A DNA stretch of 64,000 bases from the human T2T-CHM13v2.0 reference genome, Homo sapiens, in NCBI RefSeq assembly GCF_009914755.1, contig NC_060943.1; one strand, given 5' to 3'. The position numbers and the translations under genes are program-made. How positions within the stretch are numbered: the stretch's first letter is position 1; each line of letters begins with the position of its first letter. This document shows, in pieces, positions 17,591 to 56,396 of this stretch. Below the pieces are notes generated by a model that searched no databases, had not been told where the DNA came from, and saw only the letters and a program-made list of their open reading frames with translations.

Positions 17591-18531
17591 AATTTAAGAA
17601 CACAACCATGGTAGGTTGAGAAAAAGAAAAGGAATTGAATCACCCATTAAAAACACACAAAGAGAAACGAAACATTCTTTAGAAGCAAAACTACAATTTC
17701 GTCAGTCTGGCTGGCCAATTGCAGAAAAAAACAGCTTATGTGTGTCATTACATGACCAATGAAAAGGAGATAGCGTCTGGTCTAAAACTGAGAAAAAACA
17801 AACCTCATTTTCTGATCAGCGCCCTCACTGGTTGAGGACTCTTTAGGAGCCGGAGGGACTTCATTACAAGCGTCAAAATCAAACTTCCTCCCGTCTTCTT
17901 TGCTATCTCTGGCTTCTGGGCTTGGGGCTTCCGTGGGTGCTTCTGCGAGCTCCTCGCTAGAGGCCTCCGCGAGCTCGGAGGCCGCACTACTCTGCTCAAC
18001 TGCCGGCTCTAGCCCTACAGGCTCACAGTCCGTCCTCTCGCCATCGCCTGGCTGCTCCGCGGGCTCCCTTTTCACTACCGCTAACAGGCTGTCTGCCTTG
18101 CTCGACTGAGCGTGTGCTGTTGACTCGCTGGCCAAATCTAAATCACCCTCTTCCGGATGGGCGCTGTCAAATAGGTCCTCTTCCTCCGCAAGCTTTCTGT
18201 CTGGCCCCACGCTACTTGTGTCCTGTGCAAATGGCTGCTCCAGCTCGGAACTTTCTTCTTTTACTGGCTCAGATTTACAAGTTTCCCCCAAAATGTCGAG
18301 TATTTTCTCATTTTCTACGGATTTAACAGGAATAGAATGGCACAAGGTTTAATTACCAGGGAAATAAAGCAATCACAAATGTGGAACTGGCACGGCTGCC
18401 ACACTAACACGAAGAGAACTGCTAGCTACACAGAGATTGGAAAACCCGCGGGTACACAAAGTTATACTGGTTACACTACCTGCGCCGCGACCGCCTCTAG
18501 GTAAGCCTCTACGCTACACGGAAGAGAAAAG
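17591..18531 (-). repeat. 941-bp inverted repeat, copy A (SAFB2 intron 6/exon 7/intron 7)
   Basis: Reverse complement of 55456-56396; matched positions always sum to 73987 (no indels); no mismatch seen by eye; first mismatches at 17590/56397 and 18532/55455. Confidence 0.93.
17804..18314 (-). CDS. SAFB2: SAFB2 exon 7 (511 nt, acidic region; identical to SAFB exon 7)
   Basis: tag|AA AAT GAG ([17 protein letters not shown]...GADQKM S) AG|gtttgt; within ORF 17782-18345. Confidence 0.95.
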
Positions 18532-19223
18532 GCCCCCACAGATTTAAACACCTACAACCACGCGGCTGGTTCTCAATAGTCTTCTTCGAGTTTTTGTTCA
18601 AGTCTGGGTCTTCTGACTGATTTTCCAATGTCCAAGGTGCTGAACCGAATGCAATCACCATTCAATGACAGCTCAACTTCCAAATTTCTTTGAATTTCTT
18701 TTAACAGAACAATCCAATATGAAAATCAGAATCTCTTCTGACGGTGGGAGATAAACGCAGTCCGGAAGGGGAATAATATGTTGAAAATTTTCACGGAGAA
18801 ACTCTGTTTCCTCTTCTGGAATCCAGTCACTTCTCAGGTGGTAAGTGCCCTGACAACAGCTTTATCCTGCCTTAACTGCGTTAATCAAAATGACTGCAGC
18901 AAAATATCACAAGATCTGTTTCATGTGTAGAAACACATGGAGGAATCACGGGGACGGGGGAATTAAATGCCACTCTACGTGGTTAGACATGAAAAGAATC
19001 ACTACTACATTGCACCAAATGTATTTGACCTCAAGAAGCCAGAATGGCTCTTCCACAGATCTGGTGATACGAATGGGTTTCCAATCTCTGATCCTTGTAT
19101 GATCTGGATTGTCCACCATTAGAGCAATTTACAAGATCATAACACAGCTTAAAATATAGACAGCTTTAAAATAATAGTGTGAAAACTTTCAAACCATAAC
19201 TGTCGTGTTTCTCTTATCAGTAC

Positions 19224-19251
19224 CTGGCTCCAAAAGGGATTCTTCAATGTC
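19224..19251 (-). CDS. SAFB2: SAFB2 exon 6 (28-nt microexon)
   Basis: tag|DIEESLLEP G|gtactg; same length and donor as SAFB 54700-54727. Confidence 0.88.
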
Positions 19252-20148
19252 CTATTTAAAAAAGAAAAAGCAAATCCACAAGTCACTTTAAACACGGGGC
19301 ACATACATTTCACCAGTAAATATGGCTTTCAATCATCTGTGAATAAATGCCTGTTTCCACAAAACTTTCTTGTCTCCAAAAAATGTATTCCATCCTACAA
19401 TAACCTGATGAAAACCAGCTCATTTTAACAGTTTCCCTGGTAACAGCAGGTCCCTAGTGATAACAGTCTGTCCCATTCTCCCGAGTTTGGGCCCTGCCCT
19501 GCCATGCCACCCACCCCATGACCAAGCTGACCTAGTGGCTGCTGCAGCTGGCAAACACCCCCTTTGTCAGAGAAGAGGTCACAGTGGATTTAAGAAAAAA
19601 ATACTTCTCCCAACATAAACTGATTTGTAACTGAAACCTGTCATAACAAAATGATCTCTCTACTCTGCTGAAAACCTTTTCCGACATCTGTCTCACTTAG
19701 GACAATAGGTCCAATCCTTCTGGTGGCCCAGACTCAGCGAGGCGGGCCCAGCTGCTCTGCAACACCTCTGGCTTCTATCCAACCCTGTGTGCTCCCCTCT
19801 CTCTTTTGCATCAGAGACACCACCCAAACTTTCTGCTCCAAATTCTTCTTTCCCTCTTCAACCTATCCGTCAGACCTCTGGGAAGAGTTCCAGGCACTTA
19901 TGAAGTCCAACCACCAGAACTGCTCCCTCATCACACTTCTTTCTCCCTTCTGGTTACATATTTGGTTTGATCCCACTGCCCCTGCTAGATGGCCAGCCCT
20001 GAGACTGTTTCTCTTCTGCTAACCTCTTAACCCCAGCATCCAGCACAGTATCCAGTCATTTCCATACACATACACACTGCTCTTTCATTATGGAAAATCA
20101 ACCACTCGATTAACATTTCCAGCGATGCAGAACCAGATGGTAACTTAC

Positions 20149-20211
20149 CGGAGTTACTTTGAAGTTCAACGATGAAGTTTCCAAAGTGTTCTTAAATCCT
20201 TCCCCATCCAC
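20149..20211 (-). CDS. SAFB2: SAFB2 exon 5
   Basis: cag|VDGEGFKNTLETSSLNFKVTP|gtaagt; 63 nt like SAFB exon 5. Confidence 0.9.
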
Positions 20212-20624
20212 CTGAAAAACAAAATGGAAGATGACTTCGTGGAGGCTGGAGCTATGAAAACCAAGGCTGACACCTCGCTTAGGCAACTTGTGTGTCTATT
20301 TCCCTCACGGCACCTTTTGCCATCTGCAAGTCTACTGTTGGGTCATTCAGTTCAGCACCTGCCTCTCCGCCAGAACACACACTCCACGACTCTGCTCCAC
20401 CAGCGTCTCTGGCAGTGGCCTGCAGGTGGGTATGCCCTGTCTGTACTGGGTGAATGAACGAATGAATTTCCCAGGCAGTTTCTAAGTACTGGTGATTACC
20501 ACATACCCCTCCAATCACAGGATTTCCAAAGCAGAACTCAAAATGATAAAATGCACCCCTCCAATTTCACCTGGTAGCAATACTCTTAAGGTAACACTAA
20601 CCGGGCACTTTCTCCTAGCCTACT

Positions 20625-20940
<316 letters not shown>

Positions 20941-21612
20941 TAGCCTACTTTATTAAAAACAAACATCTAACTTGGTCAATTTCTCTCTTTACTACATGCC
21001 AAACAAAAGAAAAACTGTTAACACCAAGTTTTACTAAATCTGAAGCTCTTTTTAAGTGAACTACAAAAACAGCACTCCCAAATATTTTCTTTTTTCCTTT
21101 TCTCGATTTGAACTCATGACCTGGGATGCCTCCATTAACTGAGAAGTACACACTCTGAAAACAATAAGCACACAGCAGTACCAGACTGAGAAAGGCGGCT
21201 AACCAGTTGCTCAGTGCTGCCCTAGGTCAAAGGATGGTAAATTTGGAGGCAATGACTTTTGACCGTAAGGTTTAAGGTTCAGTCCTATGGAGGCATTTCC
21301 ACCCCCAAGCTGAAAGCTGCAATGCCTTAAGGAAACAAAACAACCTACTGGGCACGTGACATCAGTCAGAGTACAATGAAGATCAGCTCGAAGACACTGA
21401 CAGCTTGTGATATTTGAACAGCCTCACCAGAGAGCTCTACGCCAAAACACTAGAAGTGAAAAGCTGGGAAAGCCCTAACAGAGCAAAGTTCCTCCTTTAC
21501 ATACAAGGATGCTCACAGTCAGTCCTTTTGGGGAGCAGGGTTGATACTTGTCTTCACTGTACTTTACATCTTTTAATGTAACTGCTTAACCTTGCTTAAA
21601 ACAACATTAACA

Positions 21613-22552
21613 GGCTAGGCGTGGTGACTCACCACTATAATCCCAGCACTTTGGGAGGCCGAGGCAGGCAGATCACTTGAGGTCAGGAGTTCGAGACCAG
21701 CTCAGCCAACATGATGAAACCCTATCTCTACCAAAAATATAAAAAATTAGTCAAGTGGCTGGGCGCAGTGGCTCAAGCCTGTAATCCCAGCACTTTGGGA
21801 GGCCAAGGCGGGCAGATCACGACGTCAGGAGATGGAGACCATCATGGCCAACATGGTGAAACCCCATCTCTACTAAAAATATAAAAAAATCAGCTGGGCG
21901 TGGTGGCGCATGCCTCTGGTCCCAGCTCCTCAGGAGGCTGAGGCAGGAGAATTGCTTGAATCAGGGAGGCGGAGGTTGCAGTGAGCCATAATCTTGCCAC
22001 TGCACTCCAGCCTGGGTGACTGAGAGAGACTCTGTCTCAAAAACAAACAAACAAACAAAACACAACATTAGGAGGAATATCTACATGATGAGATTAGAAA
22101 CCATTTTTGAGCTGGGCACAGTGGACCACACCTATAATCCCAGCACTCTGGGAGGCTGAGGCGGGAGGATTGCTTGAGCTCAGGGGTTCAAGATCAACCT
22201 GGGTAACCTAGTGAGATCCCGCCTCTAAAAAAAAAAAAATTTTTTTTTAATTAGCTGGGCGTGGTGGTTCACTGTGTAGTCTCAGTTATGCAGGGGGATT
22301 GCTTGAACCTGGGAGGCTGAGGCTGCAGTGAATTATGATGACACCACTGCACTCCAGCCTGCACAACAGAGCAAGACCCTGTCTCTAAATAAATAAACCA
22401 TCTTTGTTTCTTAAAACTGTATTTTAAAAGGAAAAAACTAAATGGGCACTGTGGCCTGTGCCAATAAGCCCAGGTAGTCAGGAGGATCGCTGGAGCCCAA
22501 GAGTTCAAGACCGGCCTGGGTAACAGTTGAGACCTCATCTCAGAAAAGAAAA
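21613..22552 (+). mobile_element. Cluster of sense Alus (left monomer fused to a full Alu, AluJ, monomer)
   Basis: Repeated Alu heads at ~21613, 21757, 22110 and ~22440. Confidence 0.85.
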
Positions 22553-22815
22553 ATCTTTTATGTCAGAGCTTTCTATTTTATGACTCACCACATGCTTCGA
22601 ATTATAAAAACACTCCCCAGTGCTACAGAAAAGCTATCTATGAGTAAATCCCTGAGCTACACAGCGTTTAAATGGACATGGTTTAACACCAGGGTGTAGA
22701 AGCAGAACTGTGTGTTCATGGCGGTTTAGCTGTGTTCTCCCTCACACGAGCAGCACGCGAGCACCAGGTGCCTCGGGGCTATGGGCACATCCTGCCGTGT
22801 CTCCAAGTTACCTAC

Positions 22816-23019
22816 AGCATGCTCTGGGGGCTGAGCCGGGAGCTGTCTCAGCTGTGCAGCCACGTATTCTTTACTATCACAAAAGGAATCGAGAAGGCCG
22901 TCCGTGCCATCCTCCCCAAAATCTGGAGCACTGCTATTCGCCACTTCAGTTTCGTCTAGCACACTCATGTCCATCATGCCCATATTCTGCAGGTTCTCCA
23001 GACTTGCTTCCATGTCCTC
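22816..23019 (-). CDS. SAFB2: SAFB2 exon 4
   Basis: cag|EDMEASLENLQNMGMMDMSVLDE...PPEHA|gtaggt; phase 0/0. Confidence 0.92.
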
Positions 23020-23105
23020 CTGTAAAGAGGAAGAAGAATCGTTAACGACCACCTGGACCAGGACAGGGAGCTGCTGCTTGTCATCTCTACCCTGACATCA
23101 CTTAC

Positions 23106-23170
23106 CTGCCCGTCTCTGGAATCGTCTTCCAGGCCATTATCTTCTGTGCCTTCCTCCTCCATCTTCAGTC
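23106..23170 (-). CDS. SAFB2: SAFB2 exon 3
   Basis: ttag|GA CTG AAG ATG... LKMEEEGTEDNGLEDDSRDGQ|gtaagt; 65 nt like SAFB exon 3. Confidence 0.93.
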
Positions 23171-23282
23171 CTAATTACAGAATAATTGTTCAATCAGATA
23201 ACACTCAAGTTCTACCTCATAATTAGTTTATGCAGAATAGATTTCAATCTTAGAACAGAACACATTACAAGATAAACTATAA

Positions 23283-23631
<349 letters not shown>

Positions 23632-24270
23632 TCAATTGGTGTTCTAAGTAAGCCATCAACAGGGAGATGAAAATCTAGGATTCCTCTTAGATTCAGAGTA
23701 CTCTGATTTTCCACAAAATATCTAAAAGTTTCCAAATATTTCAAAAACACTCCAAACCTAAGAAAAAAAATCACAAAAAAATGAGCAAAGGATAAAAACA
23801 GGCATTTTCAACAAACCAACAAAAAAATGCAATACCCATCTAGTAACCAAAGAACTGCAACATAAAATAACATATTGAGTTAGTGATTTGCTGGCTCTCC
23901 CTATATTCCACCCATTTCAAGTAGGTCTTTGTCATTTTTTAGCTCAAGAACTTTTTTTTTTCCCCCAAGGCAAAAAGGCAAAGGCTGCCATAAAGTCGAG
24001 AATCATCCTGGGTTTTGTGACCACAAAATAACTATTTGATAGAATTCTGCTAGGAATTGCAAAAGGAGGCCAGAGGAGTTCAAGAGTGGAAACCTTGAGA
24101 AGAAACTTGAGGCTCTATATGTATCAAAAACCTTACAAATGTGCATACCCTTTGTTCCAGGAATTTGAGTCTTAGGATATCTGACAAGGAGTTCAAAACA
24201 TAGATATCTGTCCTATTATACCTGTTAAACACCCAAAAGGGAAACAAATTACAGCATATTTTCATTCAGA

Positions 24271-24459
24271 TATGGTTCACAACCGGGGGGAATGGCTGGC
24301 AATGTCTGGAGACATTGTTAGTGGTCATGACCTGGGGGAACGCCATTAGCATCAGTAGCTAGTGATGCTGGTCACGACCCTGCAATGCACAGGATACTCC
24401 CCAACCCCAGAGAATTCTTCGGCCCAAATTGTCAACAGTGCCAATGCTGAGAAACCCTG
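24271..24459. mobile_element. MER20-like hAT DNA transposon
   Basis: tggcaatgtctggagacatt...tgcaatgcacagga...ggcccaaattgtcaacagtgcc...tgagaaaccctg matches the MER20 pattern. Confidence 0.8.
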
Positions 24460-24544
24460 TGGGACACCATCCAATGTCTCACAATATTTAAAGAATGTAT
24501 GCTTTTAAAGAATATTTAATGAAACAGAAAAAATGCCCACAGTG

Positions 24545-25093
<549 letters not shown>

Positions 25094-26223
25094 TCAAGAG
25101 TCTCACTCACCACTGTTATCAATAATCACTCAAGAAATGCAGTTTAATTGCATGTCTCGCAACGTGAGCTTTTTCCAGGCTATCATTTAAGACGCCTAAC
25201 AACGCTAGCAGGTTTTATTATCTGCATTTGACACGAGAATTTGGTTGAGCTCCAAAGCTGGCACTCTAAAACTCAGCTGTCCCACTTCGCATTATATCTA
25301 AACACAGCATATCCTTTTGAAATACGTTGTCTAAAAATGTTTGGTAATTGCACCCAATTTCTAGGCCCCTAAATAGTAGCCTGCAGTGCCCACATAGGCC
25401 GGAAATAGGAGAAATGCTGACCAAAAAGCATCACAGAAAAGCTAATGTGGCGCAGACAGGCGACGCCCCAATCCCCGGCACCTGGCATTGGCCAACGAAA
25501 AGCTGCCGCTGCTGGGGACACAGATGTAAGAAAATCCAACTTTAATCCCACATGGCATCTAAAACTTAAATTTTTAATCCAAGTTTTATTTTTTCCAAAC
25601 CCACCTACAATGTTGCCTAGGACTCCTAATCTTGGTGAAGACCCTTACTCTGATTTATAATGAGGACACTTTTCCCTCAACAAGTTTGGCTACTTCAGTT
25701 TTTGCAAGGAAGCAGTTACTGGTGAGTTCCCAGAATGAGTCCAACTTTGGACTCAACTGAACACTGCTGCATAGTGCTTGAAACGAAAATTAACTGGTGA
25801 ATTCCTCCTGATCTAACAGTTGTATGTAATCACAGGCCCTAACTGCAACCACAAAGTCCTAAGGCTCTTGTGCTTTATCCATTAGCCACGTGCCCCGACA
25901 CCTCTAGAGAACATCACCAGCTCAGGATGGAAGATGAGGCCTGCAGGGCCTGAGCACCACCTGAAGACCTGGGCTCTCTCTGGGCTTGGTTACTTCGCTG
26001 AAAAAGGAATGGGAAGGGATCAGAAGCCCTTCTAACCCTCACTAGAGCTGAGGCTACAAAAGTCCTTTTTATAGCAACAGAAGAACTTTATCATCCAAGC
26101 TTTCCTGACAAAACACTAACTCCAAGTAGTTTTGAATCCACCTAAGCTTTAATCTAGACATTCAGGCAGGTCTTCAAAGCACTCAGCTAAAGTTTAGTTT
26201 TTCTAATGATGCAAAGATCATTA

Positions 26224-26560
<337 letters not shown>

Positions 26561-27169
26561 CTAAAAGCCAAGGATATTTTGAGTAGTAAGTCTTGAACTT
26601 TACAGTTTTAAAATGAGCACCTACATAAAAAACTTTTAAACTTTATTGTTAAGCAGTTTTCCCAACCACTAAAAAAAGAAAATTCACATCATGCATAAGT
26701 TAACACCTAAACAGAAGAGATAAACTATATTTCCTGCGTAGACCAGTCTCTCACATTCTGAATGTGCTCAGGCTGGGCCTTCTAGGTGAAATACGGACAC
26801 TCACAAGAACAGCAAAAACGCATCCATGTGTCAAAATTAAACTTTAACTTAAAGCTCTTATGCAACCTAACTAAAAGATTTAATCTTTCAAACTACATGC
26901 ACATGTTTTAAACAGTTAATGTGTTATGAAACACATTAAGAAGAAAAAGCTATTAAAAAAATGAAATTGTTAAAAATGCTACAATTTCTTTCTACTTTCT
27001 AAGCACTGATCCTCCACTGCCTGAATTTAGCACTTTTCCAAGAAAACAGGCCCCCTGCACAGGAAACCTAAATTATATTATCCTTATCACCATAAAACCT
27101 AACAATACCAACTGGGATAGTCAAAGCTTCAAAGTTTTATGGAATTCAATGCTTTCAAAAATAACTGGT

Positions 27170-27530
27170 ATCAGCCATAAACAGGAATGAAGTATCAATA
27201 CATGTTACAACACAGATGAACTTTAAGCATTATGCTACGTGAAAGCTGATGCAAATGGCCATATGTTGTACAATTCCATCTACATGAAATGTCCACAATA
27301 GGCAAATCTATGCGGACAGAACATGGATTAGTAGTTGCCAGGGGCTGGAGGGAGAAAAGTAAGGCGACTAACTTCTAATGAGGACCGGGTTTCCTTTTTG
27401 GGTGATGAAAATCCAGAAGGAGACGGTGGTGGTGGTGGCAGAGCCTTGTGTATACACTAGGAAGCACTGAATTGTACACCTTAACCTGATGAATTTAACG
27501 GTCTGTGAATTAAACCTTCACATTCAAAAA
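27170..27530 (+). mobile_element. L1M (L1MB-like) 3' end fragment
   Basis: cagccataaacaggaatgaagta...aaatgtccacaataggcaaatctat...gattagtagttgccaggggctgg is typical of old L1 3' ends. Confidence 0.75.
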
Positions 27531-27990
27531 CCGTAATAGTAAAAAATAGGCTGAGTGCAAATACCCCAACAATCTACTTTGGACCCTAGCAAAGCTGAGT
27601 TCTATTCGGTCTCAGGTTGGTGTCCTTTTCTTTGGGTTAAGACCTATTTTTTGAACCAGGAAGGAAGCCAAGTAGGTACATTTGGTTCCTCAGACCCGTA
27701 GAAGTAGCTTTAAGAGCTTGTCTTTCTCTAGTTGACTTTTAATCCCAATGGCAGAAGCTGAAACGTTTTTCGTATATTTTAATTGCACTTGGCACCTGTA
27801 CATCTCTTTCCTCCTCCCTGTGCCCTTGACAGAGCTACCTGTTAGGTGGTGACGAGCAAAGCTAACTCTTAGTGGAGGGACACCGAGTACCAGAGAAATT
27901 CTCCCAGCCTAGAAGGCGGGAAGAGCACACTACACACCATTTCTCTAAATTCTCTGAACACTCAAGCCCCAAGCAGCATATGTACAATAC

Positions 27991-28078
27991 CTTTAACACA
28001 TCTCTTGGCTGACTTCTTGCTGGTGGCTTCTAACTCGATGCCAATTTCATCAGGATCTTGCCCCTCTTCTTTAACCGC
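27991..28078 (-). CDS. SAFB2: SAFB2 exon 2
   Basis: tag|GCG GTT AAA... AVKEEGQDPDEIGIELEATSKKSAKRCVK G|gtattg; paralogous to 33088-33172. Confidence 0.93.
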
Positions 28079-28844
28079 CTATTAGGGAGAGATGAGTTTT
28101 ACAACATCATTAAGAGCTGCAGGGCACACACTGTTCCTTACAAGTAACAACCTCCCATGAAACAAAGGCAAACCCGTCCTTGCAAAGAGCAACTCCGGGT
28201 CAGCTATCTGGGCCGCAAGCCCAAAAGGCGGAGGAGGAACCCCGCACAACTTGGGTCTCTCTGGGTCCAAATGACAAAGGAGAGGGAGGCTGTGAGCAGG
28301 AGCTCCAGAATTGGGGTCAAGGACCAGTTCCAAAATGGCAACTCAACTCGACAATGCCAAACCTTCGACTTTAAAGTTATATGATGGGACAAATTAGAAC
28401 AGAGAGGCTGCACTTGGCCCGGCCTCGGTGAAGGGCTGGCCACCGCTGGTGAGGAGGAACAGCAGCCAGCCTGGGGAGATTCAACAGGTCCCTCAGTGCC
28501 TGCCACCTGCCGGGTCCAGGACTGGGTACCCACAAGCTCCCTCCCTATGCTCAAGTTGTTTGTTCCAGTTGCGGAAACAGACAATTCCCAACCCCTTAAT
28601 ATTTTGCATTTAGCCCCTGCTTTCAGCGAGGTGCGACACAAACGCAGGATGAGCTGGCAAGGAGGTGGGGCAGCGCATTAGGAAGGGCGCTCAGGAAGGT
28701 GATGTCTCAGGCAGACCCAAAATGACAACAAGGGGCCGGCCACGAGAAGATCTGGGGGACCCGGGTGGACAGCTTCGTAAAGGCCAAAGCCCTGGGGCAA
28801 GAACAAGCACCGCCCCCTTTCCTGTAAATGCTCTGGAGTCCGCC

Positions 28845-28920
28845 AGACACCCATTCTCCGGAGGAGGAAACTGAGGCACAGAGAGAAAGGCACCTGCCCA
28901 AGGTCACAGAGCCAAGGCTC
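28845..28920 (+). mobile_element. MIR core fragment
   Basis: gaggaaactgaggcacagagag...cctgcccaaggtcacagagcca. Confidence 0.75.
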
Positions 28921-29211
28921 GATCGGGAGCCCCAGGAGGGGTCCCGGGGCCACCCTGGTAGCGGAGAAGACCGCACGCTGAGCGCGCTTGAGGAGAAAAG
29001 GTGGAAAGAGGATAGGAAGGGAGGCACAGAGAGGAGCGGTGACGGGCCAAGGTCACACAGCCGGCCCCCTGGGTGCCCGACACCTCGAACCGGGGTCGGC
29101 CAAGACGCGGGGCGAACCCAGGGCGCCCCGGGTCCGGGAGCCGCGGTGACAGGTGCAGGCGGGGGCGTGCCCGGGCCTCCTGCGCCACCCCCGAGCCCCG
29201 CGCCGCCTCAC

Positions 29212-44360: not shown

Positions 44361-44999
44361 GACTATTCTTCACACTGGGAAAGAGGCCTGGCAGGAAGTA
44401 GTTTTCCCAAAGTTGTGTGTTTGATCAGCTTTTCTCCCATGTTCTTCAAAAAGCTGAGCACCGCCTTCTATAAGGAATGCTAGGAAGCTGTGCTGGCAGT
44501 AGCTCTAAAACATGAAATGATGCTACATTATGCCTTGCCTTTGAGATGTGGTCTTCCAGAGTCTATTTCATGGATTTCATGCATGTGATTTTATTCTTCA
44601 CATGGAAGACAGTCAAAGAGTTTAATTTGAGCATGCCTATTCCTGACACCAGAAATTTCATTTTTGCCATGCCTAATGACTTCCATTTTTGCTTCAGTTC
44701 TGTTATTTCTGGTATCATCGTTTACATTTTTCTATTCTCTACTCATTTTATCATTTGTATGAAAAAGCAAATGACTATATAAATACTGCTGTTTGGATGA
44801 AGGTGCCAGCATGCCTGCCCTTGTGAACTGTTGCAAATGTTATAAATCATCAATTAGTAAGAAAAATTGGGAGGTTGCACAAGGGGAGTTGGGGAAATGA
44901 CTTCCCTGTTCTTAGCATTGTTGGCTGACAGGAGAAGTATGAACCTAAGAAGGTATGCAGCCTCTTGATGTTTTTCACATTTTTTAAAATTACTAAACT

Positions 45000-47853
<2,854 letters not shown>

Positions 47854-48276
47854 TTCTTTTTTCTTTTTAAGCATTAAAAATGTGCATACTCGGGCATGCG
47901 CAGTTTCTGTGGGAAAACATGTTCCTTAACTAAAAGGCAGCACATTTGCAACAAATAATTTTTCCCTCAAACAAGGACACTTGGGATAGGAAGAAGGGCA
48001 GAGCTGAGGACAGGTCTGATCCTGTTCAACTTTACTAAGAACCTGTTTTCTGCACTTCTACTTCCACAGCTCAGACAAGAACAGAACCTCTTCTGCTTGG
48101 GGGTGGGGCAGGGCTGTCTTGTGCGGAATGGCCTCATTCCTGGATTAGGAAGTGTTCCTAAGTAGTGAGGTGTCTCAGATGTTTATAAAGTGACCACTTG
48201 TGTAGTGCTCAGGGCATTGTTGCTTCTGTAAAGTGCGTATCATTTGATCTCATGCTGTAAATGATTCTGTCTTCAG

Positions 48277-48341
48277 GGCGCAAACCAGAAGAAGAGGGTG
48301 TGGAAGATAACGGGCTGGAGGAAAACTCTGGGGATGGACAG
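48277..48341 (+). CDS. SAFB: SAFB exon 3
   Basis: cag|GG CGC.. RKPEEEGVEDNGLEENSGDGQ|gtatgt. Confidence 0.93.
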
Positions 48342-48422
48342 GTATGTGCAGCCTTGCGAGTGAGTAGCGTGGTGGATGGACCAGTGGCGGTCACATGATG
48401 GTTCGGTCTGGTTGTGTCACAG

Positions 48423-48629
48423 GAGGATGTTGAGACCAGTCTGGAGAACTTGCAGGACATCGACATCATGGATATCAGTGTGTTGGATGAAGCAGAAATT
48501 GATAATGGAAGCGTTGCAGATTGTGTCGAAGACGATGATGCTGATAACCTCCAGGAGTCCCTGTCGGATAGTAGAGAGCTAGTCGAGGGGGAAATGAAAG
48601 AGCTTCCGGAGCAGCTTCAGGAACATGCT
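48423..48629 (+). CDS. SAFB: SAFB exon 4
   Basis: cag|EDVETSLENLQDIDIMDISVLDEAE...LQEHA|gtaggt. Confidence 0.92.
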
Positions 48630-49332
48630 GTAGGTAACCGGCAATGTCTCTAGAATGTGCCCTGAATGTATCAGTTCCACAATTAAAATAGGTGATCAGT
48701 TTCATATTGGGAAGTAAGTTGTTCTGTAATGCCAGTTCAGTAGAATAAGGGTCAGTTGGTTCAGATGATTCTGAACCAATTTGTTTTGTTGAAAGGTGAT
48801 GTCTTATAACATTTCATATGTACTTGCTATCCATTTGCGGCATACAGTATGAGACATTTTGAGGACAACCATTCAGACTCTTCCTGTTGCCGGACTTGAT
48901 CTGTGGTGTTATGGCCTAGGTACCTTGAAAGCATTGAACTAGGAAGAGGTTAGAAGTTGGTGTTTTCCTGTTAAGAAGCAATTGTTGAGCTGGGTGCCTT
49001 GATGCACTCATGTAATCCGGTAACTCAGAAAGCTGAGGTGGAAGGAGCAGCCCAGGAGTTCAAGGCTGTACTAAGCTATGATTGTGCAATTGAAGTCCAG
49101 CCTGGGTGGCAGAGTCTGACAGAACCCTATCTCTTGTTTAAAACAAACAAACAAAAAAAAAAACACAGCCAGTTGATACCTATCTTAAGAGTTAACCTCA
49201 AGTATTAACCTGGATGTTGTTTTTAAACCTAAATTTTTTTCCTGTTAGAAACATATCAAATGGATAGTAAGATTATAGTGGGTAGTATTTCCTGAATACT
49301 ACCTACCAGGCATTGGCATTATGCCCTTCCTT

Positions 49333-49649
49333 TCTTTTTTTTTTTTTTTTTTTTTTTTTTTCTGAGACAGAGTTTTGCTGTTGTTGCCCAGGCTGGAGTG
49401 CAGTGGCGCGATCTCAGCTCACTGCAACCTCTGCCCCCTGGGTTCAAGTGATCTCCTCCCTCAGCCTCCCAAGTGAGTAGCTGGGATTATAGGCGCCCAC
49501 CACCAAGCCCGACTAATTTTCTTGTATCTTTAGTAGAGACGGTTTTCACCATGTTGGCCAGGCTGGTTTTGAACTCTTGACCTCAGGTGATCCGCCTGCC
49601 TCAGACTCCCAAAGTGCTGAGATTACAGGTGTGAGCCACCGCGCCCAGC
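49333..49649 (-). mobile_element. Alu (AluSx-like)
   Basis: Poly-T then antisense dimer. Confidence 0.92.
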
Positions 49650-50381
49650 ATGTGCCCTTTAATTCTTCTAATAGCAACATGAGGTGCTGTTGTCCCCATT
49701 TTCAGTTGAGGAAATTGGGAAGGCAAGAACTAAAAAACATCTCCAGATGACACACAGCTCATAACAGAATAAGAACTAAGATCAGGCTAATTCCAGAGGC
49801 CATGTACTTAACTTATGTACGATGTTGTCTTGGTGCCATTAATTTGATATTAATTTCATTTACCTGATGATTAATGTTTGTCAGACAGAAAAAGTGATGC
49901 ATATGAGAAGCTGTGGGGCCCTTTCTGTGTTGGCTCGTGGGGGGCCCTGTTCTTGTCCTGGTCCTTAGGTCTTCCGCAGTGAGTGCTTCTCAAGCAGTCT
50001 TGGTGGACAGAAACCTTGTTGTATGCCAGTCAATCCGCTTCTGCATTTCTTCAGAATATTTTTGCATTTCCTCTTGGAACTGATTCCAAGTATCCTTAGA
50101 GGTAGCAGATTGTCATATTTGAATGGAGGATTTGAGTCTGAGAAGTGGCTGAGAGTTATTCTGATACAAATAGGGTGTGCAATTTTTGGTGAGTCCCATT
50201 CATCAGCTTCTAAAAAGGAGTAGCAGAAACACTTGCACAGCAGCAGGAGTTACTTACCCTTCCTGAATGGCTGCATCTTCTTAAGGCTGTTTTTTTCCCT
50301 CCTAAGCAGAAAATCATACATTCTGCAACAAAAGCTGGAAACATCCTAAATGCCTGGAAGCAGTTTAGTTTTAAGGGTTGA

Positions 50382-50629
<248 letters not shown>

Positions 50630-52020
50630 TCACTTGCAAGAGGTTTTCGGAAGATTCAATGGATGGATGTTTATTATACACTTAAAGCAGAAGTCATCAA
50701 GTTGGCTGTCACCTGGGTTGTTTTTGTTTTGTTTTGTTTTTGTTTTGGGGTTTTTTTGTTTTTGCTTTGTTTTGCTTTTTTTCAAGACAGGGTCTCATGG
50801 TGTAAATGAAGTTTTCTGAGAACACAACCACACCTATTGATACTGTTGTCTATGGCTGCTTTTGTGCTTTAGTGTCAGAGAGGAGTCCTGACTCATCTGT
50901 TCTACAATTCCTGAAGAATTTACTAGGCAGCTCCAACAAAGTGTTTCCCAGCCTAGTTCAATGCCTAGCATCTAGAAAGCACCGTAGAGTTATGAAATGT
51001 ACCACCACGAATACAGTTTTTACTGCAGTGTAACCATCAAAATGAACTAAGCACATCTGTGTGAACTCAAACAATCTCCAAAAGAGAAGTGACACTTGGG
51101 GAGGGTTCAGAATGATGTGCTGCCCCTGGTGCAGATGTCTAAGGGGAGATGGTCTTTGGCACTTAAACACGTGTGTAGCATATGCGATGACCACTGCATG
51201 GCAGGAAGAAAGGAGTAGTGGAGAGTGGTTTTCAGTGAATGGGCTTTTGTACCTTTTGAGTCTTCTGATCGTGTGCGTGTCTTTCCTAGTGAAATATAGT
51301 GATAAAAATACATGCTGGTTATAAAATATCTGAAAACGTCTCCCCCTAAGTATATCTCAAATTTCAGGGCTTTAGAGCAGATGGCCAAAATTGGTTTCAG
51401 TCACAAATTATCTGAACCCCCTTTCTTTGTTTGGGGAATCCTTTGCCTTATTGGGCAGAGCCTACTTCTTAGAATAAAAGCTATTCTTCCCCTGCAAGTA
51501 GGGCATAGGATATTGCCAGTCTCGAGCTCCTGTCCTCACCCTCATGCTGGGAGATGCTGTTCCATTGAGGGAGGTACCTACCCCAGGGGCAGCAGGTCCC
51601 ACATCCTCAGCATCCAGGCTGGGCGAGCAGCGGTGGCTGAAGGCTCCACTTCAGCAGGACTCTAGCCATTGCTCCTGGAAGAACAGCCCTCACCCTGTGC
51701 TCAGATCCACTTAGAGGCTGTGCACTCATTTTCATCTCTTTTCTGTTTGACTTAGACTTTTTTTCTTTCTTTTGCATCTTAAAACCTACATAGCTACCAT
51801 ATTAGTAGATTTCCTAGTCTATGTGCAGGTGGACATTTACATACAACTTTTTTTTCAGTTTAGCTGCAATTATACTATAATAGTGTTTTGATTTCTGCCC
51901 TGGGTTTAAAATTTTGTTGTGAATTATTTTCATAGCTGTTCACTTTTCATTGTACAGATGTACCATTATGTTACGTTATTGTTGGTGTGATGAACTGTAT
52001 TTTCTCCATTTATTTTACAG

Positions 52021-52083
52021 ATAGAGGACAAAGAAACTATAAACAATTTAGATACTTCATCATCTGACTTCACTATATTACAG
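52021..52083 (+). CDS. SAFB: SAFB exon 5
   Basis: cag|IEDKETINNLDTSSSDFTILQ|gtaaac. Confidence 0.92.
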
Positions 52084-54699
52084 GTAAACTGTTGTATGTC
52101 TCAGTACTTTTAGAATGAAAGGTCAGACCACAATTTCTGGAATCCATTTCAGACACCATATGCCAGTTCCAGCTAATAATCACCACAAGGGTTGTTTCCT
52201 TTGTCAGGATCGTTAATGGGTGTTTGCTTTCTGCTTTCCTCCAAATATAATGTACGCATTGCCAGGGACTTAACTCTAGGCTTCGACGAGTGGCCTCCAA
52301 GCGCTGTGGCTTACCAGCAGTCATTAGAGTCATGTTTTGTGGCATTCTTAATTTCATTGCTTGTGGCAGGGGAAGGCAGCCTGTCTCATCTACCCTGGGT
52401 GGCATCCCCTGCAGAAAGATGATTTGATGAGACAGCAAGAGGGCATGGCTACCTGGGAAAGATGAGTAGGGCCCAGATGGGGATTGAGGGTTGACAGAGC
52501 CCTGTTGGGGAAGGTGGGGTCTCAGGGGTTCTGGTCTTGTCTTTGGGAAGTTTTTTTTGTTTTGTTTTGTTTTGTTTTTGTTTTGTTTTTTCTGAAATTG
52601 CCCAGATTTCATTTAATGACTGTATCATCCTACCTGTTTCATTGGCATCTCTGTAAATATTAAATCTTAGATGAGAACAGATGAGTTGAGAATTTCCAGG
52701 TATGATTTTTATATTTGTGGGTCTTGAGTTTCCTTTTTTTTTCCAGCCTACATAGATACAAATTGTTAGAACACACTTACCTAGGTAGCTGGCTAATTCT
52801 TAGGAGAACTTTTTGTGGAGAAATGAAGATCGAGCCAGCTTTTGCCCAGCCTTTTTATTTATTTATTTTTTTTCCCGTCTTCTTTTTAAATGTCATCTAT
52901 GTTATTGTAATTAGAAATCCCCTTTTGGAAAAGATCTCCATTTGCTTCTGCCATGCAAGGGCAAGGGAGATACTGGAAAGCCAGAGCTCCAACCTTGAGG
53001 AGGGCACAAATCTCAAGAAAACGTGGTGAAACCCAGTTCGCTTTTAGAGCTGCCGTCTCTCCACCTGCAAATTGACACGGCCATTCCCGACTCAGAAAGG
53101 AGAGGAGGAGCCGGATCTTGTCACTTTCCCCTGGCTCTTTCTTGGTCACAGTCTCCCATGTTAAAATGGGAAACCTACAGTCTCTCCTAAACAAATAGGA
53201 ATGTATTTGCTTCTCTTTAGAGAAAATGAGGAAGAATTATTCTGCCAACATTGATGATTTGCTTCAGTCCTATGGTCAGAATTCCCAGCATGGGGTAGGG
53301 TACATGGGGAAAAAACTGATTAAAAATAAGTGAAAGCATGAGGAAAGTGTACAGTTTCATAGAGCATCCTGGAATGGCAGGGCAGTTCCCAGGGGAAGTT
53401 ATAATTCAGTCACACCTACTTATTGGGTATATGTGAATCCCCTGTGATGTGTCAGGTGTGGCATTAACTACCAGCATTACATAGATGAATGAGAAGGAAG
53501 GGTGGTCCCCATGCTCGTGGGGCCTGGCCTGATGGTTAACAGTGCAGACTCACACTCATACACGGCCTTTGCTCAGAGCCTGTCTCTGCTTCCCACCTGC
53601 TGTGTGTCCTTGGGCAAGTTACTCAGTCTGTCTGGTCACAGTCTGTTACTCTGTAAAAAGAAGGGTGCTACCATTAGGACCAACCTCCTGCAACCGATGA
53701 CGAGTCTGTGTGTATGTAAGGTGCTTACATTTGTGCCTGGAACCTAGTCAGTGCCCATCAGTTGACTGGAATTCCAGAGGAGTGTACCTTGTGTGCACAG
53801 GAAACATAAAGGCTGGGGGATCACATCATGTGGAAAAAGCTCCTTTGCTTAGTGGGGCACAGCTGGAGTTGGGTTAGAGGGAAATAGGGAAAGCCTTCCT
53901 GAAAGGAGATGCCACTGAGCTGGATACTGAGGGATGTGGATGACTTGGCTGGACGGGGCAGGGGAGGGCTGGGCCTGTCAGGGAGGGAGGTGGCATAGGG
54001 ATCCATTGGCTGAAGGCTGAAGGCCACAGAGGGACATGAGCTTACTGTGGACACAAGGTGCAGAGAGATGGGATGGGGATAATACAACCAGATGCCACAG
54101 TAGGCAAGGATGGCACCAGCCTGAGTGGACAGGGCTTCCTGGGAAGAGTCTGAATGACTTCTAGAACTGGCCTGGTGGGAACACTGATTGGAAGAGGAGA
54201 TGAAGGAGGGAGGGTATTTACAAAGTTTTTCATGCTGGCACCACCATGCCAAGTAAGAGCAGGAGTCATACCACCTGGGCCCATATTCCCTCAGTCTTTC
54301 GAATATCAGAAAGTTGTCGTAGCTTCATTGAGTGAAAAAGTGACTGTTAATGTGCCATGCATTCCTCTAGATGCTAACAGTAGAAAAATGAAAACACTGC
54401 TCTCCTTGAATTTGAGAGTTCAATCTAGAGGGTCAGGCGTGCTTATGATGAGTGCCTCACCATGAAGTGAGACCAGTTCCAGGCTCCTGCAGGGGAGACT
54501 GAATGGAGGGTGGGCTGAGTGAAGTGGATGCCAGTCTTATGGAGCCATTCCTAGAACAAGCAGGTTCTCCACCTCTTGAGTTTGTGAGTTTCCCTCCCTG
54601 GATTTTTAAAATTCCCTCTTTAGTTATTCTGGGTTTTCATTTAAATAAACTGTAGGTGTCATTCATCTGGCACAGTCTTATTTACGTTTTTTCTTGCAG

Positions 54700-54727
54700 G
54701 AAATTGAAGAGCCATCCCTGGAGCCAG
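54700..54727 (+). CDS. SAFB: SAFB exon 6 (28-nt microexon)
   Basis: cag|EIEEPSLEP G|gtactg. Confidence 0.9.
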
Positions 54728-55455
54728 GTACTGTTAAATGAAAAACTTACCAGCGGGGGTTTGGAACCATTCTAGTTTTCCACCTTCTCTAATTTGAATT
54801 CTTTGATTTTTAAAAGTTACCTTACTATAGTATACATTGTTCTAAAGGTTTACAATCCAAAACCTACCAGGATCATAGAGATTGGAAACCCAGCCATATC
54901 ACCAGATCTGTGAAAGTGGCTCACTTCTCATTTTACAAAATGTATTGGTGAGATGAAAGTATCTCATGCCTTTTTGAATATCAACAGCATTGAATCATAC
55001 ATAGAGAAAGAGTTCCAGATGCCTCTCTTGAGAGCTAATACCTCTGCACCCACAAAACAGATCTTGTGATATTGGGCAGTAGCTTAATTTTGTTGTTTTT
55101 AATTGAGGCAGCTCAGGTAGTGGTAGGGAGATACATTTTAAAACATAAATTTGAGACATAACTGGATTCCAGAAGAGGAAAGAGTGTCTTCATGAGAATT
55201 CCAAACACTGTTCACTTTCTGGACTGCAAATATCTCAGAGCACGGATGGAAGAGATTCTGGTTTTCATGTTGGACTGTTCTGTTAAAAGAAATTCAAAGA
55301 AATTTGGAAATTGAGCTGTTCAGTGAATGGTGATACATTCAGTTAAGCAACTTGGACTTTGGAAGCTAAATTTGGAAGAGTCATATCTAAACGACGACAG
55401 AATGAAGACTGTCAAGAATCAGCCAGAAGGTTTTGGGGGTTAAATCTCTGGGATG

Positions 55456-56396
55456 CTTTTCTCTTCCGTGTAGCGTAGAGGCTTACCTAGAGGCGGTCGC
55501 GGCGCAGGTAGTGTAACCAGTATAACTTTGTGTACCCGCGGGTTTTCCAATCTCTGTGTAGCTAGCAGTTCTCTTCGTGTTAGTGTGGCAGCCGTGCCAG
55601 TTCCACATTTGTGATTGCTTTATTTCCCTGGTAATTAAACCTTGTGCCATTCTATTCCTGTTAAATCCGTAGAAAATGAGAAAATACTCGACATTTTGGG
55701 GGAAACTTGTAAATCTGAGCCAGTAAAAGAAGAAAGTTCCGAGCTGGAGCAGCCATTTGCACAGGACACAAGTAGCGTGGGGCCAGACAGAAAGCTTGCG
55801 GAGGAAGAGGACCTATTTGACAGCGCCCATCCGGAAGAGGGTGATTTAGATTTGGCCAGCGAGTCAACAGCACACGCTCAGTCGAGCAAGGCAGACAGCC
55901 TGTTAGCGGTAGTGAAAAGGGAGCCCGCGGAGCAGCCAGGCGATGGCGAGAGGACGGACTGTGAGCCTGTAGGGCTAGAGCCGGCAGTTGAGCAGAGTAG
56001 TGCGGCCTCCGAGCTCGCGGAGGCCTCTAGCGAGGAGCTCGCAGAAGCACCCACGGAAGCCCCAAGCCCAGAAGCCAGAGATAGCAAAGAAGACGGGAGG
56101 AAGTTTGATTTTGACGCTTGTAATGAAGTCCCTCCGGCTCCTAAAGAGTCCTCAACCAGTGAGGGCGCTGATCAGAAAATGAGGTTTGTTTTTTCTCAGT
56201 TTTAGACCAGACGCTATCTCCTTTTCATTGGTCATGTAATGACACACATAAGCTGTTTTTTTCTGCAATTGGCCAGCCAGACTGACGAAATTGTAGTTTT
56301 GCTTCTAAAGAATGTTTCGTTTCTCTTTGTGTGTTTTTAATGGGTGATTCAATTCCTTTTCTTTTTCTCAACCTACCATGGTTGTGTTCTTAAATT
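55456..56396 (+). repeat. 941-bp inverted repeat, copy B (SAFB intron 6/exon 7/intron 7)
   Basis: See copy A; four ORF-track entries recur identically on opposite strands. Confidence 0.93.
55673..56183 (+). CDS. SAFB: SAFB exon 7 (511 nt; identical to SAFB2 exon 7)
   Basis: tag|AA AAT GAG...ATG AG|gtttgt; ORF 55642-56205 has the same translation as ORF 17782-18345. Confidence 0.95.

What the first reader, a model, noticed from the sequence alone, without database searches (positions are those of the whole stretch)
17591..56396. Perfect 941-bp inverted identity between SAFB2 and SAFB, centred on exon 7: gene-conversion tract
Seen: 17591-18531 is the reverse complement of 55456-56396 with no indel and no mismatch that I could find. 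It covers 217 bp of intron 6, the 511-nt exon 7 (synonymous sites included) and 213 bp of intron 7, so it is almost symmetric about the exon. Identity falls abruptly at both edges. Flanking exons are very diverged (exon 5 IEDKETINNLDTSSSDFTILQ vs VDGEGFKNTLETSSLNFKVTP), and even the RRM exons differ at many silent sites. Inference: an old duplication cannot leave intronic and silent sites identical in a low-complexity acidic exon, so this points to recent or recurrent non-allelic gene conversion confined to one module. I cannot check whether this has been published.
Basis: partly seen in the sequence, partly recalled or inferred. Interest (0 to 1): 0.88.

Follow-up and report, generated by a model that had tools for sequence, protein, structure and literature searches.

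The report
Exon kept identical between SAFB paralogues
A 941-base stretch around exon 7 of the neighbouring, oppositely oriented human genes SAFB and SAFB2 is letter-for-letter identical because the two copies keep overwriting each other, and the protein piece it encodes is likewise kept identical in other mammals and in birds.

Summary
Window 17591-18531 is the reverse complement of 55456-56396, 941 of 941 bases, and the genome holds only these two copies. The other exon pairs are 62-80% identical, apart from 24 of 25 aligned bases in the 28-nt exon 6. Their silent sites are saturated.

The gene-conversion reading is supported and widened. Eleven species have both paralogues among the retrieved proteins: 6 mammals and 5 birds. 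In 9 of them the exon-7 segment is fully identical between paralogues, while flanking exons are 52-82% identical. The segment differs between lineages: 84-92% identity to human outside the anthropoids. Lineage-specific changes are shared by both paralogues.

Flank trees separate the paralogues with 1 label change. Exon-7 trees follow the species with 14 changes in mammals and 13 in birds. AU tests reject paralogue clades (p = 2.9e-6 and 3e-68).

This is recurrent interlocus gene conversion confined to one exon. It has lasted through the placental and avian radiations and was last active in the human lineage within about 3 My. Nine text searches found no report of it. It is a new member of a known kind. 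All non-human evidence is at protein level.

The parts
55456..56396 (+). SAFB copy of the perfectly identical tract (217 nt of intron 6, exon 7, 213 nt of intron 7)
   Evidence: 941/941 identity to the reverse complement of 17591-18531. One of only two genomic copies. No masked repeat, no Rfam match inside the tract.
17591..18531 (-). SAFB2 copy of the perfectly identical tract
55673..56183 (+). SAFB exon 7 (511 nt, residues about 213-383). It encodes an acidic linker between the SAP and RRM domains and holds the reported SUMO acceptor lysines K231 and K294.
   Evidence: RefSeq table; residue range. dS = 0 and dN = 0 against SAFB2. 27% D+E, with VKEE and VKRE motifs at K231 and K294. The two lysines are named in a passage of PMC4402547. 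No Pfam family.
17804..18314 (-). SAFB2 exon 7 (511 nt, residues about 212-382)
   Evidence: RefSeq table.
55236..55384 (+). Older patch in SAFB intron 6 (partner in SAFB2: 18604-18748, minus strand). 83% identical, K2P 0.19. Read as the remnant of an earlier, wider conversion.
   Evidence: The 71 nt between the patch and the tract are only 65% identical.
54681..56662 (+). Whole alignable island in SAFB, exon 6 to exon 8 (partner in SAFB2: 17320-19268, minus strand). Intron parts outside the tract are 62-66% identical, K2P 0.47-0.54.
   Evidence: One gapped BLAST alignment of 2013 columns. Window profile. K2P values and a shuffled null of 43.5% mean, 50.3% maximum.
18532..55455 (.). The 36.9-kb segment between the inverted tracts: exons 1-6 of both genes and the shared promoter gap 29459-29765. 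A crossover inside the tract would invert this segment.
   Evidence: Geometry and the RefSeq table. The inversion itself is an inference and was not observed.

Best explanation
The tract is an island of concerted evolution kept up by recurrent interlocus (non-allelic) gene conversion between the head-to-head paralogues SAFB and SAFB2. A break in or near exon 7 of one gene is repaired from the inverted copy 37 kb away on the same chromosome or sister chromatid. This copies a few hundred bases without crossover and erases any differences. SHOWN: there are two physical copies with zero differences at coding, silent and intronic sites. Divergence elsewhere is saturated. Divergence is nested around the core: 0, then K2P 0.19, then about 0.5, then saturated. 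The encoded segment evolves between species while staying identical between paralogues within species, in mammals and in birds, and lineage-specific substitutions sit in both paralogues. INFERRED: (i) The last homogenisation in the human lineage was less than about 3 My ago. This is the 95% bound for 0 differences in 941 sites at a recalled rate of 0.5e-9 per site per year. (ii) At equilibrium the local conversion rate would have to be at least about 14 times the genome-wide estimate of 2.5e-7 per base per generation. That estimate predicts a plateau of about 4.5% divergence, whereas here it is at most 0.32%. (iii) Exon 7 is the island probably because, at 511 nt, it is the longest exon listed for either gene in the window (the next is 204-207 nt coding). 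It would be the only block where unbroken homology long enough to start conversion could persist, so identity perpetuates itself. Short exons set in fast-diverging introns would have escaped. Selection for identity in this SUMO-bearing linker may add to this.
For:: 941/941; only two copies, so there is no third donor; other exon pairs are 62-80% identical at nucleotide level, apart from 24/25 aligned bases in exon 6; pS is 0.65 (exons 1-6), 0.81 (exons 8-13) and 0.89 (RRM exons), against 0 in exon 7. In Homo, macaque, marmoset, tarsier and polar bear, exon 6 is 6-7 of 9 (no aligned residues in polar bear) and exon 8 is 6 of 16 (2 of 2 in tarsier), while exon 7 is 167-169 of 167-169; nested divergence in the flanking introns; all 11 species with both paralogue types were examined, and 9 have a fully identical exon-7 segment (Homo, Macaca mulatta, Callithrix, Carlito, Ursus, Gallus, Bubo, Strix, Semnornis). 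M. nemestrina is 167/168 and Calidris 159/163. By row pairs, 10 of 16 mammalian and 8 of 12 avian pairs are identical. One search, cross-species pairs within a family or order: vespertilionid bats 169/169, bowhead against narwhal 169/169, yak against goat 168/169; exon 7 is 84-86% identical between human and bat, carnivore or cetacean SAFB1-type proteins, while the flanks of the same proteins are 91-97% identical. The segment is therefore not under unusual constraint; trees and AU tests (p 2.9e-6 and 3.1e-68); published rate, tract length and expected escape (Harpak et al. preprint, abstract and section 7 read).
Against: All non-human evidence is at protein level. It comes from database gene models of at most 902 residues (short isoforms and partial records), so tract edges and silent sites outside human are unknown. 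Some assemblies are short-read: the two tarsier proteins come from contigs of 10 and 30 kb and both stop just after exon 7, as expected if an assembler broke at, or collapsed, a repeat. Rodents are represented only by one naked mole-rat fragment. No reptile, amphibian or fish was among the 120 listed of 778 hits. The GC-bias signature expected of conversion is mixed. The intron-6 part of the tract has GC 0.475 and CpG o/e 0.90, against 0.372 and 0.16 just outside. The intron-7 part (GC 0.352) is not enriched, and exon-7 GC3 (0.54) is unremarkable. No PRDM9-type 13-mer lies within about 750 nt of either copy. Some cross-species pairs are low: Xiphorhynchus against Manacus 141/165, Elephantulus against Loxodonta 148/172. 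These are distant species or long-branch models and say little either way. Neutral models predict escape from conversion, so persistence over such a span is not explained by the average process.
Confidence: 0.9

Rival explanations
1. Conversion supplies the exchange, but the island persists because selection favours identical exon-7 segments in the two proteins (for example a shared modification or partner site). It would not persist only because homology perpetuates itself neutrally.
For: Neutral models with a homology threshold predict early escape, and even continuous conversion at the genome-wide rate gives about 4.5% divergence. Here divergence is 0 in human, and the proteins are identical in 9 of 11 species. 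The same exon is the island in both birds and mammals, although the flank tree puts the two bird paralogues together, apart from the mammalian ones. That could mean the pattern arose twice. Both reported SUMO acceptor lysines of SAFB1 lie in the exon.
Against: The segment evolves faster between species than its flanks: 84-86% against 91-97% identity to human in SAFB1-type proteins. It matches no Pfam family. The identity includes 430 intronic bases, which selection on a protein does not explain. The V-K-E-E motif around K231 is absent from the bird sequences shown. Exon length alone offers a simpler reason for the same exon in both classes.
Confidence: 0.3
2. A single recent event in the human or ape lineage (one conversion or a small duplication-replacement), with no long-term process.
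For: The human DNA alone cannot separate one recent event from many.
Against: The same exon is identical between paralogues in macaque, marmoset, tarsier, polar bear, chicken, two owls and a barbet. Each lineage carries its own substitutions in both paralogues. One change is shared by Macaca mulatta, M. nemestrina and M. fascicularis but absent from Colobus, and about 15 changes are tarsier-specific. The nested divergence in the human introns also points to earlier events.
Confidence: 0.03
3. No exchange at all: both copies are frozen by extreme purifying selection (an ultraconserved element).
For: An annotated enhancer feature (55158-56357) overlaps the SAFB copy.
Against: The encoded segment is only 84-92% identical between human and non-anthropoid mammals and 52-53% identical to birds. 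It is therefore not frozen, and the changes are shared by both paralogues within a lineage.
Confidence: 0.01
4. Artefact: assembly collapse or polishing in the reference, or gene models in other species that borrow one exon for both genes.
For: Short-read assemblies can collapse a 1-kb repeat. The two tarsier models both end just after exon 7. Three database proteins switch paralogue type exactly at exon 7: Desmodus P0016 and Prolemur P0066 and Atlantisia P0009. This is what mis-joins across an identical stretch look like.
Against: In the window the two copies are physically separate, each in its own diverged intron context. From my own knowledge, not tested here: long reads span a 941-nt repeat many times over. 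The protein pattern recurs in records from chromosome-scale contigs, for example macaque SAFB1 on a 70.8-Mb contig. Collapse in other assemblies would itself require near-identity.
Confidence: 0.03

Closest known systems
Non-allelic (interlocus) gene conversion between human gene duplicates, as parameterised by Harpak, Lan, Gao and Pritchard (bioRxiv 10.1101/135152; abstract and section 7 read)
   Same: A short tract is copied between paralogues on one chromosome. It leaves a block of identity with sharp edges inside diverged duplicates, and paralogues look young in the tract.
   Different: That study reports a mean tract of 250 bp, a small average effect and early escape. Here a 941-bp block shows zero divergence in duplicates whose silent sites are otherwise saturated. 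The same exon stays homogenised across mammalian orders and in birds.
Classical concerted evolution of linked duplicates such as the fetal globin genes HBG1/HBG2 or inverted Hsp70 pairs (recalled, no call)
   Same: Repeated conversion makes paralogues cluster within species. Tract limits can coincide with gene structure.
   Different: As I recall them, those pairs are young or similar over most of the gene. SAFB and SAFB2 are 59% identical in exons 1-6 and 72% in exons 8 onward at protein level, and only one exon is homogenised.
Sequence exchange between inverted duplicates that also mediate inversions, e.g. PMS2/PMS2CL and the FLNA-EMD inversion (recalled, no call)
   Same: Inverted repeats on one chromosome undergo conversion. 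A crossover in the repeat would invert the intervening segment.
   Different: As I recall, those repeats are many kilobases long. Here the repeat is under 1 kb and lies inside two functional genes in the same reading phase, so an inversion would swap the N- and C-terminal halves of two live genes. No inversion was observed here.

Membership tests
Interlocus gene conversion / concerted evolution | Two physically separate paralogous loci, not one collapsed locus | tested here: met
   Two copies 36,924 nt apart on opposite strands, each in its own diverged intron. Exactly two places in the genome by DNA and by protein search.
Interlocus gene conversion / concerted evolution | A tract of much higher identity than its flanks, with sharp borders | tested here: met
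   100% over 941 nt against 62-66% in adjoining intron and 62-80% in the other exon pairs, apart from 24/25 aligned bases in exon 6.
Interlocus gene conversion / concerted evolution | Identity extends to silent and non-coding sites | tested here: met
   430 intronic bases identical. dS = 0 in exon 7 against pS 0.65-0.89 elsewhere.
Interlocus gene conversion / concerted evolution | Phylogenetic discordance: paralogues group by species in the tract and by paralogue in the flanks | tested here: met
   Protein level only. Mammals: 35 of 85 aligned rows used, 1 label change in the flank tree against 14 in the exon-7 tree, AU p 2.9e-6. Birds: 31 of 52 aligned rows used, 1 against 13 changes, AU p 3.1e-68.
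Interlocus gene conversion / concerted evolution | GC-biased signature in the tract | tested here: inconclusive
   GC and CpG are raised in the intron-6 part (0.475, o/e 0.90 against 0.372, 0.16). They are not raised in the intron-7 part. Exon-7 GC3 is 0.54.
Interlocus gene conversion / concerted evolution | Polymorphisms shared between the two copies in populations, or de novo events in pedigrees or sperm | not testable with these tools
Inverted-repeat NAHR inversion locus | Both orientations of the intervening segment observed among haplotypes or species | not testable with these tools
   The only hints are three database proteins that switch paralogue type at exon 7. Mis-joins are an equally good explanation.
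Annotated segmental duplication (recalled definition: at least 1 kb at 90% or more) | Length of at least 1 kb at 90% identity or more | tested here: not met
   The ungapped block is 992 nt at 98%. The 2013-column gapped alignment is 81.6% identical. The threshold itself is recalled. If it is right, scans based on segmental duplications would skip this pair.

The most novel reading that the evidence does not exclude
The exon-7 island is not a passive leftover. It would be an actively maintained module with a local conversion rate at least ten times the genome average, or with selection for identity. It would have arisen, or been retained, in parallel in birds and mammals. Its inverted copies would also occasionally cross over, flipping the 37-kb promoter-proximal segment and swapping the N- and C-terminal halves of SAFB and SAFB2. 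On this reading the three database proteins that change paralogue type exactly at exon 7 (a vampire bat, a lemur, a rail) would be real recombinants rather than mis-joins.
Probability: 0.2. Interest if true: 0.75.

Novelty: new member of a known kind. Interest (0 to 1): 0.6.

Why it matters
Practical consequences:
- Any short read, probe, guide RNA, siRNA, peptide or antibody epitope from these 941 bases, or from the 169-170 residues of exon 7, cannot tell SAFB from SAFB2. Variants there will be mis-assigned or dropped for ambiguous mapping. Automated gene models can jump between the genes; three such records were seen.
- The SAFB literature I read places the highest conservation in the SAF-box and RRM (PMC4582101). 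In fact the linker exon is the only 100% identical part: 169/169, against 29/35 for SAP and 73/79 for RRM.

Evolutionary interest:
- This is a clean natural case of conversion confined to one exon in duplicates that are otherwise saturated. It is sustained across mammalian orders and seen again in birds.
- It runs against the expectation that duplicates quickly escape conversion. It therefore offers a test bed for what sets conversion hot spots and escape.

Structural prediction:
- It predicts a testable inversion polymorphism that would recombine two live genes.

Tried and rejected
A third copy or outside donor: none by DNA or by protein in the whole genome. Matches in closed regions are not shown.

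A transposable element or structured RNA as the cause of identity: no masked repeat overlaps either copy. The only Rfam match up to E = 1 in 55200-56700 lies outside the tract, at 56609-56652 with E 0.93.

A known protein domain in exon 7: 0 Pfam families at E up to 1.

The ERH-binding motif as the reason for identity: rejected. Passages of PMC13288104 place it at SAFB2 residues 567-588, outside exon 7.

A PRDM9-type hot-spot motif: none in 54700-57000 or 17000-19300.

Literature. Nine full-text searches were run.
- 'safb2' plus 'gene conversion' gave 2 papers that are one work, on gorilla acrocentric amplifications. Passages read are unrelated to this tract.
- 'safb' plus 'gene conversion' gave 10 papers, 9 listed. 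By title and abstract start, none concerns this locus. Except for the gorilla paper I did not open them.
- 'safb' plus 'concerted evolution' gave 3 papers, neither listed work on this.
- 'safb2' plus 'camouflaged' gave 0.
- Passages were read in 10.1101/2025.09.09.675111, PMC10605862, PMC9958909, PMC4689037 and PMC4582101. None mentions an identical exon or conversion.
- The paper that first described SAFB2 (Townson et al. 2003, J Biol Chem) is not held and may describe the identity.

Limits of the protein sampling. The length rule of the search for homologous proteins kept the canonical proteins out of range (915 and 953 residues, lengths recalled). I reached longer relatives in three steps: exon 7 alone (3 hits), a 294-residue hit with region 40-208 (9 hits), and an alignment of the 9 hits headed by a 515-residue protein (778 hits, best 120 listed, lengths up to 902).

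Rows used in the trees:
- 35 of the 85 aligned rows. One row per species and paralogue, chosen before the trees were seen. This leaves out further isoforms, the type-switching Desmodus P0016 and the mixed Colobus P0021. Prolemur P0066 was kept under its N-flank label, and it accounts for the second label change in the C-flank tree.
-, C-flank tree: the tool dropped 3 rows for lack of columns.
- 31 of 52 aligned rows.
- 34 rows.

Duplication age. The combined flank tree puts bird A and bird B together (support 99) and the wombat with SAFB2 (98). I could not decide between independent duplications and early whole-gene homogenisation, because no outgroup was available.


Full report
**Observation**

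An independent repeat scan ranks the pair as the longest inverted repeat in the window, 992 nt at 98%. The next 24 listed pairs are 210-323 nt at 74-88%, which I take to be Alu-type repeats. The tract is 217 nt of intron 6, the 511-nt exon 7 and 213 nt of intron 7 (with the RefSeq table supplied). The whole T2T genome holds exactly these two copies, by DNA search and by protein search. No third locus could be the donor, although matches in closed regions are not shown.

**Anatomy of the surroundings**

- Every other exon pair of the two genes in the window is 62-80% identical at nucleotide level. The exception is the 28-nt exon 6, at 24 of 25 aligned bases.
- Synonymous sites differ at 65% (exons 1-6), 81% (exons 8-13) and 89% (RRM exons 9-11). 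They are therefore saturated. Exon 7 has dS = dN = 0.
- At protein level, human SAFB and SAFB2 are 124/210 identical before exon 7, 169/169 in it and 162/225 after it. The SAP region is 29/35 and the RRM 73/79.
- The homology around the core is graded. One gapped alignment runs from exon 6 to exon 8, SAFB 54681-56662 against SAFB2 19268-17320.
- Outside the perfect core, the introns are 62-66% identical (K2P 0.47-0.54). Shuffled sequence aligned the same way gives a mean of 43.5% and a maximum of 50.3%.
- One 149-nt patch in intron 6 (SAFB 55236-55384) is 83% identical, K2P 0.19.
- I read the series 0, then 0.19, then about 0.5, then saturated as the trace of conversions of different ages and reach centred on exon 7. 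This is inference.
- No masked repeat overlaps either copy. Nothing in Rfam matches inside the tract. The exon matches no Pfam family.

**The cross-species test in mammals**

No mammalian or avian DNA collection was available, so I tested at protein level. Three linked searches gave 126 SAFB-family proteins from named sources.

I aligned 83 of them, plus the two human partial proteins translated from the window (85 rows). Identity of exons 3-6 and exons 8-13 to the two human genes sorts the mammalian rows cleanly into SAFB1-type and SAFB2-type.

Six mammalian species have both types. The exon-7 segment compares between paralogues as follows:

| Species | Exon 7 |
|---|---|
| Homo | 169/169 |
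| Macaca mulatta | 169/169 (4 of 7 row pairs identical; the other three differ at 1-2 residues) |
| Callithrix | 169/169 |
| Carlito | 168/168 |
| Ursus maritimus | 167/167 |
| M. nemestrina | 167/168 (the difference lies at the first residues of the exon, an isoform boundary) |

In these same pairs exons 3-6 are 52-56% identical. Exons 8-13 are 72-74% identical, except 61% over 145 aligned residues in M. nemestrina and too few residues to judge in tarsier.

Exon by exon, exon 6 is 6-7 of 9 (no aligned residues in the polar bear pair). Exon 8 is 6 of 16 where enough residues align (2 of 2 in tarsier). The island is bounded by the same exon in every species compared.

The segment is not frozen:
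- It is 84-86% identical between human and bat, carnivore or cetacean SAFB1-type proteins, whose flanks are 91-97% identical to human SAFB.
- The lineage-specific changes sit in both paralogues. One change is shared by Macaca mulatta, M. nemestrina and M. fascicularis but absent from Colobus. One is peculiar to human, chimpanzee and gorilla. About 15 are peculiar to the tarsier. Others mark vespertilionid bats, bovids and cetaceans.

Trees make the same point:
- On exons 3-6 the paralogue label needs 1 change, with clade supports of 99 and 100.
- On exon 7 it needs 14, at least 9 of them forced by strongly supported branches. The tree follows the species (35 of the 85 rows, one per species and paralogue).
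- Holding the SAFB1-type rows together costs 157 log-likelihood units, p-AU 2.9e-6.
- The C-flank tree needs 2 changes. The second is the lemur record discussed below.

**Birds show the same thing**

The 50 bird proteins fall into two types, A and B, by both flanks. Five species have both types. Exon 7 compares as follows, with flanks 71-86% identical:

| Species | Exon 7 |
|---|---|
| Gallus | 165/165 |
| Bubo | 163/163 |
| Strix | 163/163 |
| Semnornis | 165/165 |
| Calidris | 159/163 |

Gallus and Bubo differ from each other at 15-17 of 165 exon-7 positions. The bird flank tree needs 1 label change and the exon-7 tree 13. A type-A clade on exon 7 is rejected at p-AU 3.1e-68 (31 of 52 aligned rows).

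In a joint flank tree of 34 rows, each of the four groups is one clade. The two bird types join each other (support 99). The single marsupial joins SAFB2 (support 98). There are two possibilities: birds and mammals duplicated the gene independently, or an older pair was homogenised over its whole length for a time. Without an outgroup I cannot tell which.

**Mechanism**

The best reading is recurrent interlocus gene conversion. Breaks near exon 7 are repaired from the inverted paralogue without crossover.

Zero differences in 941 sites put the last homogenisation in the human lineage within about 3.2 My. This is the 95% bound at a recalled rate of 0.5e-9 per site per year. It is about 5 My if only the roughly 600 intronic and third-codon sites are counted. 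The 41 CpG sites in the tract would tighten the bound.

A published estimate for human duplicates gives 2.5e-7 conversions per base per generation and a mean tract of 250 bp. It predicts a plateau of about 4.5% divergence if conversion never stopped, and otherwise an early escape. Here divergence is at most 0.32% (3/941). If the locus is at equilibrium, its local rate is at least about 14 times that estimate. This is inference.

Why this exon? At 511 nt it is the longest exon listed for either gene in the window; the next longest coding block is 204-207 nt (RefSeq table). It would therefore be the one place where unbroken homology long enough to start conversion could survive, and each conversion renews it. 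This step is inferred, not shown.

Selection for identity is a non-exclusive alternative:
- For it: the exon carries both reported SUMO acceptor lysines of SAFB1 (a passage of PMC4402547; motifs checked).
- Against it: the segment evolves faster between species than its flanks, and the identity covers 430 intronic bases.

**Rivals**

- One recent human-only event is contradicted by the other ten species.
- Pure purifying selection is contradicted by the divergence between species.
- Artefact in the reference is unlikely, given the unique flanks.
- Artefact in some non-human records is possible and is discussed under the caveats.

**What is known**

Interlocus gene conversion and concerted evolution are textbook processes, so this is a new member of a known kind. 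Nine text searches found no report for SAFB and SAFB2. Passages read in seven SAFB-related papers do not mention it. One of them states that the two proteins are most conserved in the SAF-box and RRM (PMC4582101), which the numbers above correct.

The original SAFB2 paper is not held. Either may contain the observation.

The ungapped block is 992 nt. That is just under the 1-kb threshold I recall for segmental-duplication catalogues, which may explain why scans built on those catalogues would skip it.

**Caveats**

- Outside human everything rests on protein records of at most 902 residues. Many are computed isoforms or partial models, and some come from short-read assemblies.
- The two tarsier records come from contigs of 10 and 30 kb and both end just after exon 7.
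- Within-species pairs exist only for five primates, one carnivore and five birds.
- Bats, cetaceans and bovids are covered by pairs across genera or families: 169/169, 169/169 and 168/169.
- Rodents are represented only by one naked mole-rat fragment. Reptiles, amphibians and fish were not sampled.
- Low values for Xiphorhynchus against Manacus (141/165) and Elephantulus against Loxodonta (148/172) involve distant species or long-branch models. They are uninformative rather than contrary.
- The GC-bias signature is mixed, and no PRDM9-type motif was found.

**Consequences**

Sequence from this stretch cannot be assigned to one gene by short reads, guides, probes or peptides.

Three database proteins change paralogue type exactly at exon 7:
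- Desmodus P0016: SAFB1-type before the exon, SAFB2-type after it.
- Prolemur P0066: the reverse.
- Atlantisia P0009: type A before, type B after.

Mis-joins across the identical stretch are the plain explanation. However, a crossover between the inverted copies would invert the 37-kb segment between them and produce exactly such reciprocal, in-frame hybrids. That can be tested in long-read haplotypes.

Noticed in passing
Proteins P0016 (Desmodus), P0066 (Prolemur), P0009 (Atlantisia); no window coordinates: Three database proteins switch paralogue type exactly at exon 7. P0016 is 97% SAFB-like in exons 3-6 and 95% SAFB2-like in exons 8-13. P0066 is the reverse. P0009 is bird type A before the exon and type B after it. 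They are either mis-joins across the identical stretch or real products of an inversion between the inverted copies.
   Followed up: partly
Bird proteins, e.g. P0037 against P0075 (Gallus), P0078 against P0092 (Semnornis, both listed with a 43,389-nt contig): Birds carry two SAFB paralogues whose exon-7 segment is also kept identical within species. In the flank tree the two bird types group together rather than with SAFB and SAFB2. This leaves open independent duplication against early whole-gene homogenisation.
   Followed up: partly
window 55158-56357 and 18494-19693: RefSeq lists 1200-nt 'enhancer' features at both loci. The SAFB one covers most of the tract. The SAFB2 one covers only its last 38 nt plus intron 6. 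Assays based on short reads could not have told the two tract copies apart.
   Followed up: no
window 29209-29534 against 29754-30080: The first exons and the shared promoter gap form a second, much weaker inverted homology: 72% over 332 columns. This is the ordinary level of divergence for this gene pair.
   Followed up: no
window 55673-56183 (SAFB residues 231 and 294): Both lysines reported as SUMO acceptors of SAFB1 lie in the identical exon, in V-K-E-E and V-K-R-E motifs. SAFB2 has the same residues at 230 and 293.
   Followed up: partly
Protein P0003 (Heterocephalus glaber): The naked mole-rat SAFB1 fragment carries an insertion of a long glutamate-rich run inside the exon-7 segment, absent from all other mammals aligned.
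   Followed up: no
window 16973-17316: RefSeq model XM_054322745.1 of SAFB2 starts at 17316, in intron 8 just downstream of exon 8 (17323-17372). This implies an alternative internal first exon about 275 nt beyond the tract.
   Followed up: no
Protein P0021 (Colobus): This SAFB1-named record is only 84% SAFB-like and 66% SAFB2-like in exons 3-6, while other Colobus records are 94-100% SAFB-like there. It is a mixed or faulty model.
   Followed up: no
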